IMG/VR virus record: IMGVR_UViG_3300033181_000231
Length of the DNA: 64,000 bases
Origin: a virus
Direction: 5' to 3' (one strand)
The stretch's first letter is position 1, and each line of letters opens with the position of its first letter. Below the pieces are notes generated by a model, which did not search any database, was not told the DNA's origin, and saw only the letters and a program-made list of their open reading frames with translations. Positions 25,952 to 31,019 of the stretch are shown piece by piece. The position numbers and the translations under genes were made by a program.

Positions 25952-26302
25952 TCAATGGAACAGACGCCGCCGCTCTTCATCGCTGATCGGAGTCGGAACC
26001 ATCGGGCGCACTCTCTGCGATCCTGCGTTGATGGGTTGTACATCGCGCTGGCAATAGCGACACACAGACGCGGCCTCGGGGATGCGGCTTAGGCAATGGG
26101 GACATGACCGCGTCCACGCATCAGCCTGCCGGATCGTTTCGACATCGTCCAGTGGACGCAAGAGCGCCACGACAATAAACGCGAATATGCCGAATAGGAT
26201 GCCGAGCACGAGCCACCCGCCAACGTCGCGATGCTTGTTCGACGCCACGATCGGCGCCCCCACGATCCCCAAGAACCACGCGATAGCGATGAACAGTGTC
26301 AT
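25952..26302 (-). CDS. Membrane protein with C-terminal zinc ribbon (moron)
   Basis: GAGGGGG RBS. Two TMs, then 'SCPHCLSRIPEAASVCRYCQRD'. Confidence 0.75.
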   Translation of the reverse strand: MTLFIAIAWFLGIVGAPIVASNKHRDVGGWLVLGILFGIFAFIVVALLRPLDDVETIRQADAWTRSCPHCLSRIPEAASVCRYCQRDVQPINAGSQRVRPMVPTPISDEERRRLFH

Positions 26303-26365
26303 GGCGCGCGTCCCCCTCTCTCGCGCACAAGCGTACCGAAAAAAGGGGAGCATGTCAACAAGCAC

Positions 26366-26508
26366 AGAGGGGGCGCGTTTCTGGAACGCGCCCCCTCTCC
26401 TCACCAAACGGAGCCTCTCCCCGCCGTGCCGTGCCGCGCCGGACCTGGCCTGACCATGCCTGACCACGCCAGACCCTACCCCAACGCTAGCCCACCCAAC
26501 CACCCACA
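26366..26508 (-). ncRNA. Putative guide RNA B: 19-nt leader + GGY-NN pentamer array + 3' 14-bp hairpin
   Basis: 12 consecutive perfect GGY-NN units (26480-26421) then 5 degenerate ones. Hairpin AGAGGGGGCGCGTT/AACGCGCCCCCTCT (26366-26398). Confidence 0.75.
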
Positions 26509-26511
26509 ATG

Positions 26512-27126
26512 CTAGCGCAGGGCAATACGCGTCAACCGGAACGCGCCGTGCCACCCGCCCGTCGAGGGGCGGTAGTCACCGACGCCGTGCATCTTGCCGG
26601 CCGTCTGGATGACCTTCTCAATGCTTGCCATATCGGTTAGCGACAGGTCCAAGACGTAGCGGCAGGTCATGAACCACGGCGGGTTGATCTCCGGCCGGCC
26701 GCGCTCGACGCCTGCCGTTCCCACGACGACGCGCTCCACGTTCACGCCGTAGTCGTCGATGGGCGTCCCGTTCTCATCGTGGAGAACAAACATGGTATGC
26801 ATGGCGTCGAATTGCATCGCGCCTTTGAGAATGTAGCTGTAGCGATAGCGTTGCCCCGGCGCCGGGAAGCGCGCCGCCGCGTCGATCATGCTCTTGCGCA
26901 TATGCGTTGCCGGTAGCGCAAGGTGGCCGTCCGCGTCACGGTAGACGTACTTGGGCGCCTCCTGCTCCGGCGTTGGCCGCTCCTTCTTCTTAACGATGCC
27001 CGTTTCCTGGCGCAAGTTGCCACGCCAATTGTGCATGAGAACCGACGATATGCCCTCGACCGTGAACTCCAGATCGCGCCACGCCTCGAACTCAACCTGT
27101 GGCTTCTCTACCAATGCCGTCACCAT
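26512..27126 (-). CDS. Solo Cas7/RAMP-fold protein (Vipr-like putative RNA-guided effector)
   Basis: AAGGAG RBS. 'LEFTVEGISSVLMHN', 'YRDADGHLALPATHMRKSMIDAA', 'RGRPEINPPW', C-terminal Gly-rich loop 'AGKMHGVGDYRPSTGGWHGAF'. Confidence 0.8.
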   Translation of the reverse strand: MVTALVEKPQVEFEAWRDLEFTVEGISSVLMHNWRGNLRQETGIVKKKERPTPEQEAPKYVYRDADGHLALPATHMRKSMIDAAARFPAPGQRYRYSYILKGAMQFDAMHTMFVLHDENGTPIDDYGVNVERVVVGTAGVERGRPEINPPWFMTCRYVLDLSLTDMASIEKVIQTAGKMHGVGDYRPSTGGWHGAFRLTRIALR

Positions 27127-27158
27127 CGTGCGTTACTCCTTCTTAGAAATCCCCTAGC

Positions 27159-27252
27159 AAGCCAGACCTTACCCCACCTCACCCGACCATACCTAGCCTT
27201 CTACCTGACCATGCCTCGCCTGACCGAGTCCGTGCCCGCCCAACCACCCACA
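27159..27252 (-). ncRNA. Putative guide RNA A: 19-nt leader + GGY-NN pentamer array
   Basis: 13 perfect GGY-NN units (5 + AA insertion + 8) in the intergenic region upstream of the RAMP gene. Confidence 0.7.
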
Positions 27253-27259
27253 TGCACGG

Positions 27260-27841
27260 TTACAGCACGCTATTTTTCTCCGCGATGGCGACGACCTCCT
27301 CTTCGTTAAACACTTGACCAACCGTGCTGTCCGCCGCCCCAGCGGCCATGCGGCCGGCGAGGCAATCGAAGAACCGCGCGTAGGCCGCGTTGGACCGCGT
27401 GCGATCGTAATAGGCGGTGCGTTGATAGAGAACCATGTCCCCTGTCATGTCACCCAGCGGGACCATGCCGACGCCGGGGATCATGAACCGCCAATCGCTC
27501 AGGAGGCACTGCGCCTTGCCCTGCGCGACCGACCGCACCTTCGTCTCGATGGCGATGGGGGCGTCAGGGTTCACCAGGACGGGCGCGCTGCCGGTCACAA
27601 CGGACCTGCTCTGGCGCGTCTGATGCGCGACCTTGCGCCCCAGATAGATGAAGCCTTGCAGGGTGACCGTCCCGGCGATATCGGGCAGGATGCCCCGGTC
27701 CTGGCATGCCGCCAGCGTCCGGTCGGCCGCCTCCCGGTAGCCGATCTGGCCGCTCGCAAGGAGATCGCGCAAGTGGCGCATGGCCCACGCGGTCGCCGCT
27801 GATTGGGCGTCCGCGTCGTCCGGCGGAAGGGGGTTCAACAT
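27260..27841 (-). CDS. Hypothetical protein upstream of the RAMP gene (possible accessory factor)
   Basis: AAAGGA RBS. 'VPLGDMTGDM...Y...N...ARFF..LA' C-terminal helical domain. Confidence 0.65.
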   Translation of the reverse strand: MLNPLPPDDADAQSAATAWAMRHLRDLLASGQIGYREAADRTLAACQDRGILPDIAGTVTLQGFIYLGRKVAHQTRQSRSVVTGSAPVLVNPDAPIAIETKVRSVAQGKAQCLLSDWRFMIPGVGMVPLGDMTGDMVLYQRTAYYDRTRSNAAYARFFDCLAGRMAAGAADSTVGQVFNEEEVVAIAEKNSVL

Positions 27842-27865
27842 GTGGCCTGATCCTTTCTGATTCAC

Positions 27866-28072
27866 TTACTGGGGCGTTGAGATGAACGTGAGTTGCGTCA
27901 GCGTGGTCGTGGCGCCGCCGACCGTGACGTTGTTCACGACGAACGCCTCGCTGCCGAAATAGCCGGTCTCATCGCGCCACCAGTACGGCTCGGCGTCCAC
28001 CCGCTCCCCCGAATGAATCCAATCAAGCGGGTAACTCGTGGGGCGTGGCGTCTCCATTGTTGGCGTCATCAT
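27866..28072 (-). CDS. Hypothetical protein
   Basis: GAAGGAGG RBS. Coupled to the upstream ORF. Confidence 0.6.
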   Translation of the reverse strand: MMTPTMETPRPTSYPLDWIHSGERVDAEPYWWRDETGYFGSEAFVVNNVTVGGATTTLTQLTFISTPQ

Positions 28073-28278
28073 GATCCTCCTTCATGCATGGGCAGGGCAT
28101 CGACCGTGACCCACACGAGCAGACTAACGGGGATGGTCGAGAAGGTGCGGGGCGTCATCACGGCGAACCCCCCATCTTGCCAGGGGCGGCCGTCAAGCGA
28201 CGGCGGGAGGGGATCACTAAAATGGCAACTGAGGTCCTGCTGCGTGAAGTCGTGCGCGACCGGGGGTGTCCTAGGCAT
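28069..28278 (-). CDS. Hypothetical protein
   Basis: AGGAG RBS before ATG 28278. Confidence 0.55.
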   Translation of the reverse strand: MPRTPPVAHDFTQQDLSCHFSDPLPPSLDGRPWQDGGFAVMTPRTFSTIPVSLLVWVTVDALPMHEGGS

Positions 28279-28291
28279 GCGTTCTCTCCTT

Positions 28292-28621
28292 TCAGGCGAT
28301 ACCGGGGGCGAGCGTGAGATGGCGTCGGGCATGAGGTGAGCGGCGGCGGGGCCGTGCGGTCGTGCGCCTGCCGCGCAGCAGGCGCAGCCGCGTCCTGTCC
28401 GCGTGATAGGCGCGACTCTCATGCGCCGCGTCCGTACACGCGCGCTGGAGCACGTCCTCGTGCGCGCTAACGATAAACGCGAGGAGCACGGCCGCTCCGG
28501 GCGAGTCGGGCGAGCCCGCGAGCGCCTCCGTCACGATCCGCGCGATGCTACCCTCTCTCCCGTTGACTTGGACGAACCGCCGCGCCTGATCCGCGGTAAA
28601 GAGCGGAGCGTGCTCGTTCAT
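28292..28621 (-). CDS. Hypothetical protein
   Basis: GGAGG RBS. Part of the leftward operon. Confidence 0.55.
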   Translation of the reverse strand: MNEHAPLFTADQARRFVQVNGREGSIARIVTEALAGSPDSPGAAVLLAFIVSAHEDVLQRACTDAAHESRAYHADRTRLRLLRGRRTTARPRRRSPHARRHLTLAPGIA

Positions 28622-28623
28622 CG

Positions 28624-28896
28624 CTACACCTCCAACGTCGCGGCGAACTCGTAGTCGGACGCGTAGGCGGCGAGATGGTCCACGAAGCGCCGCAGGGCGG
28701 CGACGTATTCAACGTGGTCAATCGGCGTCGGGTCGTAGACGCCGCGCGCTAGGTGGACCGTGACCTGGCCCATGGGCGCGTCGTCGGCCGCCACGAGCGT
28801 CAGGGCGATGTCGTGGACGGGATCGACGCGATCGACATAGACGGGGTGCAGACGCGATAGATGCGTTGGACGAACACGGTGCAATTGTGCTACCAT
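28624..28896 (-). CDS. Hypothetical protein, first gene of the leftward island operon
   Basis: AAGGAG RBS before ATG 28896. Confidence 0.6.
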   Translation of the reverse strand: MVAQLHRVRPTHLSRLHPVYVDRVDPVHDIALTLVAADDAPMGQVTVHLARGVYDPTPIDHVEYVAALRRFVDHLAAYASDYEFAATLEV

Positions 28897-28998
28897 TGGG
28901 CGTACTCCTTAACCGGAGCCTGTCCGCCTCATCACTACTTTCCACGGGAGAGATGGGGTGGACATTTTACTAGGAAGGCTCACCGCCCACCTGATATG

Positions 28999-29027
28999 AT
29001 TATAGTGCAATCGCACTAAGTTTGCAA
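28999..29027 (-). promoter_or_regulatory. Leftward promoter TTGCAA-17-TATAAT with a palindromic operator TAGTGC-AATC-GCACTA (29003-29018)
   Basis: Near-perfect sigma70 hexamers with 17-nt spacing. The palindrome overlaps the spacer and -10. Confidence 0.8.
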
Positions 29028-29068
29028 GGGGGATGGTTGTGTCGCTGATCGTGCTTGATTGGGTGAGG

Positions 29069-29293
29069 GTGGACGGAAAACCCGAATTCATAACGCTCCG
29101 CGAGGCTGCCGAGCGTGCGGGGTATGCCTCCAAGAGCACGCTTCAGACAGCGGCACGTTATGGTGAATTGGAAACTCATAGGGTCGGCAATCAATACCTG
29201 ACGACTCCAGAGTGGCTTGACTCCTACTTGCGAAAGGTGCGACGGGGTTCGTATCGTCGCGGACAAACGCGATCCGAAGGCGAGTCAGCGTAG
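29069..29293 (+). CDS. HTH_17/MerR-like DNA-binding protein
   Basis: 'FITLREAAERAGYASKSTLQTAARYGELETHRVGNQYLTT'. Confidence 0.75.
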   Translation: MDGKPEFITLREAAERAGYASKSTLQTAARYGELETHRVGNQYLTTPEWLDSYLRKVRRGSYRRGQTRSEGESA

Positions 29294-29547
29294 TGACAAC
29301 TGCCGTGCAAGACAAAACCGAATACATCACGCTAGCGCAAGCCGCTAAAGAGGCTGGCTATTCTAGCCCAAGCACGCTGTACGCTGCTGCTCGCACGAGT
29401 CCGCCTCGACTAAAGACACGACCCTTTGGTCCGCGCGCCACCATGACAACGCGCGCGTGGCTCCAAGAATACCTTACGGGACTCAAAGAGAGCATGTCGC
29501 ACCGTGGTGAGCGTCGTCCTGACGACGACGACGCGGACGACGCGTAG
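29293..29547 (+). CDS. HTH_17/MerR-like DNA-binding protein, tandem paralog of the previous gene
   Basis: 'YITLAQAAKEAGYSSPSTLYAAAR...TT..WL..YL'. Confidence 0.75.
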   Translation: MTTAVQDKTEYITLAQAAKEAGYSSPSTLYAAARTSPPRLKTRPFGPRATMTTRAWLQEYLTGLKESMSHRGERRPDDDDADDA

Positions 29548-29663
29548 AGACCGCTCCCCCACCTGCCTTATTGCTCTCCGTGTTCCTTCTGGTCTACACT
29601 GTGAAGACGGGACGCCTTGCAGCCCACCCGCGTCACCCGCGCGTCCCCCGGAAGGAGACGACC

Positions 29664-29921
29664 ATGTTGGAGCACGAACGCGCCTATTTCGATGCGCATT
29701 TATCGGAGTGGTTACAGCACTATCCCCAACGCTTTGTTCTCGTCAAGGGCGAGGAGTTAATCGGGACGTTCGACACGCAGGACGACGCCCTACGTGAGGG
29801 CGCCCGCCGCTTTGGCCTCGCGCCCTTCCTTATTCGCCGCGTGGAAATGCAGCGGCCGGTGGCCGAGATACCCGCGCTCACTCTGGGGCTACTCCGTGCC
29901 GATTCTGCACGTTCGGCCTGA
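29664..29921 (+). CDS. DUF5678-like small protein
   Basis: AAGGAG RBS. 'YF..HL.EWL..YP.RFVLVKGEELIGTFDT..DAL..G...FG..PFLIRRV'. Confidence 0.7.
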   Translation: MLEHERAYFDAHLSEWLQHYPQRFVLVKGEELIGTFDTQDDALREGARRFGLAPFLIRRVEMQRPVAEIPALTLGLLRADSARSA

Positions 29922-30381
29922 CACCAGCGGGCAGATGCCCGATGGGACGCCCGTGCAGCTACCGCCGCCTGTCGCGTTCCAGATGCGCGGGCCGTGCCTC
30001 CAGGTGACGATCAATCTGAGCGCGAGCGTTGCGGCCCAATTGGTGCAGCAGGGCGTGGCTGTCCCCGCGCCCATGTCGGGGACGGCGCTGATCGACACAG
30101 GGGCGTCGTTAACCTGTATTGATGACGTGGCGGCGCAACGTCTGGGGTTGTCGGTGATCGATGTCGTCAGCATCGCGTCCGCGTCGCACGCGTCCACGCA
30201 GCAGAACGTCTATGCGACGCTCATCGAGATCACGGGGACGGCCATCAGCATCAACGCCGACCGCGCGATCGGGGCCGCGCTACATGCCCAAGGACTCATC
30301 GCCCTAATCGGCCGTGATGTCCTGATGATGACGACGATCTTCTATAACGGGGTTACCGGCGAGTTTACCTTATCCGTCTAG
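29896..30381 (+). CDS. Retropepsin-like (clan AA) aspartyl protease
   Basis: 'ALIDTGASLTCID' and 'ALIGRDVL' signature motifs. Confidence 0.85.
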   Translation: MPILHVRPDTSGQMPDGTPVQLPPPVAFQMRGPCLQVTINLSASVAAQLVQQGVAVPAPMSGTALIDTGASLTCIDDVAAQRLGLSVIDVVSIASASHASTQQNVYATLIEITGTAISINADRAIGAALHAQGLIALIGRDVLMMTTIFYNGVTGEFTLSV

Positions 30382-30428
30382 GGAGGGGGTCATCATGCGC
30401 GTGTCCTGTTCTACGAAGGCGCTGTGAC

Positions 30429-30968
30429 ATGGCTGTGAAAGAGCAAGCGCGGCGCGCGGCCCTGGAAGAGATCAAGGGCCTCGCGCGGGAGTTACAGACA
30501 GCGACATCGGCCCGCCAACGGTACGAGATTAGCCAAAAGATGAACAATCTCTCCAAGCATGCGCAGGCGGATATCGTCAGGCTTGAAGAGGTGCGTCCAT
30601 GGCGCGATGAGCAACGCTGGCGATTATCGAACTTCTATGGGACCTATGATCATCGGATGGACATCTTTTATCTCTACGCCCCGCCGCTGGACCCAGCGAC
30701 ATGCATATACGCGCGATTGGGGGATTGCCTCGCTCTCATATCTAGCGATACGCATGAACTTGTTGGCTATCAGATAGACAACTTTCGTTCGGTCTGGCTC
30801 ACGGCGCATCCAGAAGTACAAGCGCAAGCCCAAACGGCCGCGCGCCCTCTGGCGCATCCATCGTTGCGGGGTTTTGGTGGCGCGTGGGCGGATCTCATAC
30901 GGACGGTCATGAATAGCCTCATCCGTGAATCACAGGGTATATCCCCACCCATGCAACTATCACGGTAG
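30429..30968 (+). CDS. Protein with a DUF2283-like domain
   Basis: 'YDHRMDIFYLY...D...THELVGYQIDNF'. Confidence 0.5.
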   Translation: MAVKEQARRAALEEIKGLARELQTATSARQRYEISQKMNNLSKHAQADIVRLEEVRPWRDEQRWRLSNFYGTYDHRMDIFYLYAPPLDPATCIYARLGDCLALISSDTHELVGYQIDNFRSVWLTAHPEVQAQAQTAARPLAHPSLRGFGGAWADLIRTVMNSLIRESQGISPPMQLSR

Positions 30969-30989
30969 CCCGCGCCCCTGCCGACGTTC

Positions 30990-31019
30990 AGGCCCATTTA
31001 GCGCGCTAGATGGGCCTTT
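30990..31019 (+). terminator. Intrinsic terminator closing the accessory island
   Basis: AGGCCCATTTAGC/GCTAGATGGGCCT stem plus TTTG. Confidence 0.55.

What the first reader, a model, noticed from the sequence alone, without database searches (positions are those of the whole stretch)
26490..27252. Both pentamer arrays start with the same 19-nt leader right after a stop codon
Seen: TGTGGGTGGTTGGGYGGGC occurs at 27252-27234 and 26508-26490 (one mismatch), 7 and 3 nt after the stop of the preceding gene. Inference: a 5' handle, processing or nucleation signal releasing guides from the polycistronic mRNA, analogous to a CRISPR repeat handle. The G-tracts could alternatively form a G-quadruplex. 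Guide A lacks a strong 3' hairpin and sits in the 5' UTR of the RAMP gene, so protein binding there could also autoregulate translation.
Basis: partly seen in the sequence, partly recalled or inferred. Interest (0 to 1): 0.6.

Follow-up and report, generated by a model that had tools for sequence, protein, structure and literature searches.

The report
Stem-quadruplex cap on VIPR guide RNAs
Both guide RNAs of this phage's CRISPR-like VIPR system begin with a small conserved RNA fold, a base-paired stem closing a G-rich loop that probably forms a G-quadruplex; no such cap has been described for VIPR guides, and it most likely sets and shields the guide's front end.

Summary
The 19-nt motif is real, at the stated places, and occurs only twice in the window. 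The locus is a phage VIPR system (family profile hits SUSP1 Vipr, E=1e-20; GGY/NN guides). Seventeen bases are the loop of a 6-9 bp stem, whose 5' arm lies between the stop codon and the motif (copy B includes the stop). A homologous locus (84% protein identity, 55-60% of fourfold sites changed, guides different) keeps both caps. Four of eight stem pairs change compensatorily; in the loop only three non-G positions vary. With quadruplexes allowed, ViennaRNA folds all four copies as a stem-enclosed two-tier G-quadruplex. A more distant relative has a 15-bp GAAA hairpin at the same spot; about 25 other VIPR loci have no such cap. Published vrRNAs carry a conserved 3' tail, and those papers never mention quadruplexes. 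Best reading: a 5' structural cap that defines and protects guides cut from a polycistronic mRNA (about 0.5). Stem well supported, quadruplex likely (about 0.7), function inferred. Only four copies in two loci. The scan found VIPR arrays in other genomes before, but no stem-enclosed quadruplex cap.

The parts
27254..27259 (-). Cap A, 5' stem arm (CCGTGC), starting at the first base after the stop codon of the upstream gene
27236..27253 (-). Cap A, loop: 1-nt linker, UGU, then G tracts of 3, 2, 3 and 2 with loops of 1, 2 and 1 nt; predicted two-tier G-quadruplex
27230..27235 (-). Cap A, 3' stem arm (GCACGG)
27154..27225 (-). vrRNA guide A: 13 GGY/NN units with a 2-nt register shift after the fifth; lies in the 5' UTR of vipr; no strong 3' hairpin
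27136..27141 (-). Shine-Dalgarno-like AAGGAG of vipr, 17 nt after the last canonical guide unit
26512..27126 (-). vipr gene, 204 aa RAMP protein
   Evidence: profile hit to SUSP1 Vipr 36pp E=1.4e-20; AlphaFold model pLDDT 94.6 matches Csm3/Cas7 folds
26511..26518 (-). Cap B, 5' stem arm; includes the last codon and the TAG stop of vipr
26492..26510 (-). Cap B, loop: 2-nt linker, UGU, G tracts of 3, 2, 3 and 2; predicted two-tier G-quadruplex
26484..26491 (-). Cap B, 3' stem arm
26396..26480 (-). vrRNA guide B: about 16-17 GGY/NN units, degenerate towards the 3' end
26366..26398 (-). 14-bp terminator-like hairpin closing guide B and the operon
27260..27841 (-). Candidate accessory (vap-like) gene, 193 aa, upstream of vipr in all three loci of the clade; no family or fold identified
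28999..29027 (-). Only sigma-70-like promoter found in 25.9-29.3 kb (TTGCAA-17-TATAAT); would drive one transcript through both guides
   Evidence: consensus match only

Best explanation
Each guide RNA of this VIPR locus starts with a compact duplex-quadruplex cap. A 6-9 bp stem closes an 18-19 nt loop whose four G tracts stack into a two-tier G-quadruplex, probably extended by the spare G's and the invariant UG. The guides are embedded in a polycistronic mRNA directly behind stop codons. After the mRNA is cut and degraded, the cap most likely stops 5'-to-3' decay (RNase J type) or removes the single-stranded 5' end that end-dependent nucleases need. This fixes the guide's 5' end, insulates the G-rich tract from upstream mRNA, and bounds the Vipr filament. 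Shown by sequence comparison: the stem, its compensatory changes, conservation of the loop G's, position at both guides, VIPR membership. Predicted: the quadruplex (about 0.7). Inferred: RNA processing and end protection.
For: Stem: 93.8% of cells paired, 4 of 8 pairs with compensatory changes, slid controls 16-34% paired; 4 of 4 VIPR copies have stems of 6 bp or more against 3 of 58 chance motif matches (none of the 58 with 6 Watson-Crick pairs; Fisher p=6e-5, copies not independent). Selection: 55-60% of fourfold sites differ between window and L001, yet 14 of 17 loop positions are invariant in all four copies and the three variable ones are all non-G. Quadruplex: MFE in all four copies, alone and in the whole guide region, 6-9 kcal/mol better than without. 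Function tied to position, not loop sequence: L036, same two genes at 47% and 33% identity, has a 15-bp GAAA hairpin (z -6.6) between stop and array. One promoter-like site, upstream of the operon, so the guides need processing. Folded RNAs can block RNase J1, and G-rich inserts block Xrn1 in yeast (bioRxiv 10.1101/262683). Other VIPR types release guides with hammerheads or staggered processing, so end formation is a variable module.
Against: Only four copies from two loci, descending from one ancestor; shuffle controls overstate significance for related sequences. Three of 17 columns varying only at non-G positions has p of about 0.03 (my calculation). Without the quadruplex term the folds are no better than shuffles (z -0.7 to -1.7). 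Energies of two-tier quadruplexes are poorly parameterised, and the guide tracts reach similar G4Hunter peaks in the window. No RNA-end data. Host unknown, so RNase J is not established. G-rich tracts do not stall decay in mammalian cells. RNA quadruplexes are reported depleted in bacteria (PMC8191793). A plain hairpin suffices in L036, so end protection alone does not explain why the loop sequence is so tightly kept.
Confidence: 0.5

Rival explanations
1. The stem-loop is a protein-binding handle: the accessory protein, a terminal Vipr subunit or a host nuclease recognises the conserved loop (folded as a quadruplex or not) to cut out, load or cap the guide, as Cas6 and Cas5 do with a crRNA repeat.
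For: Sequence-level conservation of non-G bases (UG, UU) and of the two closing pairs in all four copies suggests recognition or a tertiary junction. A dedicated accessory gene of unknown fold is present in all three loci. Duplex-quadruplex junctions can be protein sites (FMRP-sc1, cited in PMC8191793).
Against: L036 has the same accessory gene family but an unrelated loop. No nuclease fold was found in the accessory protein (low-confidence model). In SUSP1 structures ordered subunits begin at the 3' pseudoknot. Not exclusive with the best explanation.
Confidence: 0.22
2. The loop is a ligand-responsive quadruplex. If the terminal C-G pair opens, the tracts read 3, 2, 3, 3: a three-tier quadruplex with one G vacancy that GTP, ppGpp or a cyclic dinucleotide (or the invariant upstream G) could fill, switching guide stability or loading.
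For: Tract pattern seen directly in all four copies. Vacancy-bearing quadruplexes that bind guanine derivatives are known (papers listed). Synthetic duplex-flanked two-tier quadruplexes such as Chili bind small ligands (PMC8192780).
Against: No alternative conformation or expression platform is conserved: no shared long-range partner for the loop. The terminal C-G pair is invariant. Known vacancy quadruplexes are mostly DNA. No natural precedent.
Confidence: 0.07
3. The element controls translation (autoregulation of vipr) rather than guide maturation.
For: Guide A lies wholly in the 5' UTR of vipr, its last canonical unit 17 nt before the Shine-Dalgarno sequence; the same layout holds in L001. 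A Vipr filament there could hinder ribosome loading (inference).
Against: Cap B is equally conserved but is followed by a terminator-like hairpin, not a start codon. Cap A is about 90 nt from the ribosome-binding site. In L036 no array lies before vipr.
Confidence: 0.08
4. The motif is only the first few, duplicated guide units (a shared seed or a relic of array duplication).
For: It is built of GG and pyrimidines and resembles YNNGG units; both arrays derive from one ancestor.
Against: GG spacing in the loop is 3-5 nt, not 5. Both L001 copies have A where a unit needs a pyrimidine, and the Vipr pocket excludes purines there. The true guide units have diverged while the loop has not. The loop is closed by a compensated stem.
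Confidence: 0.05
5. The cap is a small self-cleaving ribozyme of a new class that frees the guides, as hammerheads do in type I and V VIPR arrays.
For: Hammerhead-interspersed VIPR arrays exist; position directly 5' of each guide; invariant junction bases.
Against: No Rfam match. About 30 nt with one helix is smaller and simpler than known nucleolytic ribozymes, none of which has a quadruplex core (own knowledge). L036 has a simple hairpin instead.
Confidence: 0.05

Closest known systems
VIPR systems (Vipr + vrRNA; SUSP1 and P. fulva type II; bioRxiv 10.64898/2026.04.26.720920, .720927, 10.64898/2026.10.15.759431; PDB 36pp)
   Same: Phage-borne solo RAMP gene with one accessory gene, flanked by GGY/NN arrays of typical length; thumb and G-loop residues conserved.
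   Different: Described vrRNAs have an invariant 3' tail (pseudoknot in SUSP1), or hammerhead or staggered processing. Here the conserved structured part is at the 5' end, guide A has no strong 3' structure, and the accessory gene matches no known family. 'Quadruplex' occurs in none of the four papers searched.
Synthetic duplex-quadruplex RNAs (Chili, PMC8192780; Mango, Spinach, Corn; FMRP-binding sc1)
   Same: A canonical stem leading into a two-tier G-quadruplex through a few conserved junction bases.
   Different: Those were selected in vitro and solved structurally; this is a natural phage RNA with a predicted fold and no known ligand. Chili's quartets use non-consecutive G's and a second stem.
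Exoribonuclease-resistant RNAs (xrRNA; bioRxiv 10.1101/262683) and poly(G) blocks
   Same: Proposed working principle: a compact fold stops 5'-to-3' decay and so makes a non-coding RNA from the 3' part of an mRNA; xrRNAs block RNase J1 in vitro.
   Different: xrRNAs are pseudoknotted rings in eukaryotic RNA viruses; no such topology is evident here and resistance is untested.
Class 1 CRISPR crRNA 5' handle and 3' hairpin
   Same: Constant element capping a variable guide bound by RAMP subunits.
   Different: The crRNA 5' handle is an 8-nt single strand left by Cas6 cleavage of a repeat (own knowledge). Here there is no repeat-spacer array, no Cas6 or Cas5, and the constant part is a closed stem-loop.

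Membership tests
VIPR system | Vipr protein: RAMP fold with thumb and G-loop, homologous to characterised Vipr | tested here: met
   Profile of 115 relatives hits SUSP1 Vipr at E=1.4e-20 over the full length; R144 and D184-Y185-R186 align with SUSP1 R138 and D177-W178-R179; fold matches Csm3/Cas7.
VIPR system | Intergenic arrays of about 9-16 GGY/NN pentamers next to vipr | tested here: met
   13 units before and about 16-17 after the gene; NN differ in L001.
VIPR system | Minimal locus without cas genes or CRISPR array, mostly in phages | tested here: met
   Two-gene unit in an island of a 64.6-kb virus record with terminase, portal and capsid genes.
VIPR system | Guides match targets by the 1-nt skip rule | tested here: inconclusive
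   No exact match of ten decoded units of guide A in IMG/VR; best self matches 17/26 and 19/32, below the 80% threshold.
VIPR system | vrRNA is expressed, binds Vipr and silences DNA | not testable with these tools
   Needs sRNA-seq, pull-down and reporter assays.
Type II (SUSP1-like) vrRNA | Invariant structured 3' tail shared by all guides | tested here: not met
   The 3' ends of guides A and B differ; A folds weakly, B ends in a terminator-like hairpin; the shared element is 5'.
RNA G-quadruplex (duplex-quadruplex) | Four tracts of at least two G's with short loops, conserved G's and variable loop bases | tested here: met
   Tracts 3/2/3/2, loops 1/2/1; all variation at non-G positions; G4Hunter about 2.0; MFE with quadruplex option.
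RNA G-quadruplex (duplex-quadruplex) | K+-dependent Hoogsteen quartets form in vitro and in cells | not testable with these tools
   Needs CD, NMR, DMS or RT-stop data.
Hammerhead or other Rfam ribozyme | Match to a curated covariance model | tested here: not met
CRISPR repeat handle | Repeat-spacer array processed by Cas6 or Cas5d | tested here: not met
   Two isolated copies, no array; neighbour gene has no RAMP or nuclease match.
xrRNA | Protein-independent block of 5'-to-3' exoribonucleases | not testable with these tools
   Needs an RNase J1 or Xrn1 resistance assay.

The most novel reading that the evidence does not exclude
The cap is a naturally evolved duplex-quadruplex RNA module, architecturally like the synthetic Mango, Chili and sc1 aptamers, that folds in a bacterial host and makes VIPR guides by blocking 5'-to-3' decay, possibly with a G vacancy that binds a guanine nucleotide. 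To my knowledge it would be the first phage non-coding RNA quadruplex backed by covariation of its closing stem, and a new route of guide-RNA maturation.
Probability: 0.35. Interest if true: 0.75.

Novelty: new variant of a known kind. Interest (0 to 1): 0.56.

Why it matters
How vrRNAs are cut from their transcripts and protected is open for most VIPR types. This clade suggests a solution at the opposite end from the described 3' tail and offers a 30-nt module that is cheap to test and could stabilise engineered guides. RNA quadruplexes are thought to be selected against in bacteria, and natural examples with evolutionary support are few; a conserved, stem-enclosed one in a phage RNA would be a clean test case. 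The limit is breadth: four copies in two loci, no experimental data, unknown host.

Tried and rejected
Searches for more copies: exact or degenerate motif scans of IMG/VR (0 and 6 hits), JGI metagenomes (33) and GTDB genomes (27) gave only chance matches with no Vipr gene in the fetched DNA; these served as controls. Protein searches found just three clade members for both genes; scans of viral and genome contigs added none. Whole-genome samples of Chloroflexia, Chloroflexota and Actinomycetota gave only distant Viprs. The covariance model found no cap in 26 other VIPR loci. Host assignment through the terminase failed. A long-range or pseudoknot partner for the loop is not conserved. A CUUG-tetraloop hairpin at the 3' end of guide A was not supported by folding. 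An internal promoter before either guide was not found (weak evidence in a GC-rich host); a TTGACG hexamer near the end of vipr is not kept in L001. A Shine-Dalgarno-type ribosome roadblock was considered because L001 has GGGAGG in the loop, but the window copies have C or U there. The accessory protein gave no family or fold. No target for guide A. Two literature searches for precedent returned no papers.

Full report
Observation. They are the only matches in the window at up to 3 mismatches; shuffles give 0.11. A covariance model built later finds no third copy.

Context. The gene between the arrays (27126-26512) is a Vipr. A profile of 115 relatives hits SUSP1 Vipr, PDB 36pp, at E=1.4e-20, and the thumb arginine and G-loop D-aromatic-R motif that read GGY in SUSP1 are conserved. 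The AlphaFold model (pLDDT 94.6) matches Csm3/Cas7 chains. The arrays are GGY/NN tracts of 13 and about 16-17 units, as in VIPR systems (bioRxiv 10.64898/2026.04.26.720920). The upstream 193-aa gene is a candidate accessory gene with no identified family or fold. The unit lies in an island of a 64.6-kb phage record. The only sigma-70-like promoter is at 29027-28999 and a terminator-like hairpin follows guide B, so both guides probably sit in one transcript of about 2.6 kb (inference).

The element is a stem-loop. In copy A the six bases after the stop codon (CCGTGC) pair with the six after the G-rich stretch (GCACGG). In copy B an 8-bp stem does the same and includes the last codon and stop of vipr. 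The closest homolog, L001 (Vipr 84%, accessory protein 61%), has the motif before both of its arrays, with stems of 8 and 9 bp of partly different sequence. Over the four copies 93.8% of cells pair, four of eight pairs show changes on both sides, and sliding the 3' arm drops pairing to 16-34%. Among 58 distinct unrelated matches to the same loop pattern from public collections, 3 have a stem of 6 bp or more in register and none has 6 Watson-Crick pairs. The four copies share ancestry, so these numbers overstate independence, but compensatory changes occur both between paralogs and between the orthologous B copies.

The loop is under selection and looks like a quadruplex. Window and L001 differ at 55-60% of fourfold-degenerate sites and their guide units differ, yet 14 of 17 loop positions are invariant. 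The three that vary are the base before the first G tract and the two single-base loops between tracts. The tracts are 3, 2, 3 and 2 G's with loops of 1, 2 and 1. With quadruplexes allowed, ViennaRNA gives a stem-enclosed two-tier quadruplex as the minimum-energy fold for all four copies, alone and within the whole guide region, 6-9 kcal/mol below the fold without it. Without that option the region folds no better than shuffles. The loop is unlikely to be guide units: its spacing is irregular and both L001 copies carry A where the Vipr pocket needs a pyrimidine. The quadruplex is a prediction; two-tier energies are rough and the guide tracts are G-rich too.

Distribution. The third clade member, L036 (Vipr 47%, same accessory family), has a 15-bp hairpin with a GAAA loop between the vipr stop and its array. 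About 50 arrays in 25 more distant VIPR loci show no stem-enclosed quadruplex before the guide; several Chloroflexia guides have 3' hairpins instead. So a 5' stem marks this small clade and the quadruplex loop marks its nearer branch. No further members were found.

Mechanism. Shown: stem, conservation, position, VIPR membership. Predicted: quadruplex (about 0.7). Inferred: function. Because the cap stands at the start of both guides, directly behind stop codons in a long transcript, and a different stable hairpin holds the same place in L036, the simplest role is to set and protect the 5' end when the guide is released by mRNA decay. Folded RNAs can block RNase J1, and G-rich inserts block Xrn1 in yeast though not in mammalian cells (bioRxiv 10.1101/262683). 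The host is unknown, so the nuclease is unknown. I put this at 0.5. The main rival, a protein-recognised handle (0.22), better explains the invariant non-G bases and may act together with it. Ligand sensing through a G vacancy (0.07), translational control (0.08), leftover guide units (0.05) and a new ribozyme (0.05; no Rfam match) are weaker.

Comparison with what is known. Described vrRNAs have an invariant 3' tail, a pseudoknot in SUSP1, next to which filament subunits order first; other types use hammerheads or staggered processing. None of four papers on VIPR mentions a quadruplex. Their figures were not visible to me, so a 5' stem drawn for some VIPR type cannot be excluded. The architecture recalls synthetic aptamers such as Chili, a stem leading into a two-tier quadruplex (PMC8192780). 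RNA quadruplexes are reported depleted in bacteria and natural examples are few (PMC8191793). Earlier notes of this scan describe many SUSP1-type arrays and call this locus VIPR-like, but none describes a stem-enclosed quadruplex.

Verdict. The system is a new member of a known kind; the 5' cap is an undescribed variant of its guide architecture, well supported as a stem, likely as a quadruplex, and untested in function. Interest 0.56.

Noticed in passing
window 27225-27159 (-): Guide A, decoded by the 1-nt skip rule with the 2-nt insertion looped out, reads like I-Q-R-Y-I-R-E-G-K-L, typical of excisionase-type HTH_17 proteins; no exact target in IMG/VR and none in the phage itself.
   Followed up: partly
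window 27164-27154 (-) and L001:1470-1480: Window guide A and L001 guide B share about 10 bases near their 3' ends although the rest differs; a CUUG hairpin there was not supported by folding.
   Followed up: partly
window 26518-26511 (-) versus L001:1356-1368: In the window the vipr stop codon is inside the stem of cap B; in L001 the stop is TAA and overlaps only the outer end of the stem, so terminating ribosomes would open the cap on the intact mRNA.
   Followed up: no
L001:670-745 and 1395-1487: L001 guides are much more degenerate (many TGT or TGC in place of GGY) than the window's, yet their caps are intact.
   Followed up: no
L086, L087, L089, L091, L096 (Chloroflexia genomes), just after the vipr stop: These single guides start with a shared short motif (ACATGGC) and end in a strong GC-rich 3' hairpin; some genomes hold up to four vipr copies.
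   Followed up: no
L040:3668-5660: A VIPR locus with about 11 guides that end in runs of GGTAG units; ViennaRNA folds some of these 3' ends as three-tier quadruplexes without a closing stem.
   Followed up: no
L079 (Mycobacterium phage Saal, gene 51): Mycobacterium and Gordonia phages carry Vipr homologs annotated as hypothetical proteins; Saal has a tract of about 45 units upstream. L078 has one of about 56 units.
   Followed up: no
L099:1410-2045: An Actinomycetota genome has a Vipr homolog (E=3.6e-30) with no evident GGY/NN array within about 400 nt on either side.
   Followed up: no
window 25952-31000: The VIPR unit sits in an accessory island between the tape-measure-like gene and later tail genes, with a divergent unit of two HTH genes and an aspartyl-protease-like gene.
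   Followed up: no
L020:817-856: A metagenomic match to the loop has a 6-bp stem in the same register followed by 11-nt repeats, but no Vipr gene in the 11.6-kb contig; probably chance.
   Followed up: partly
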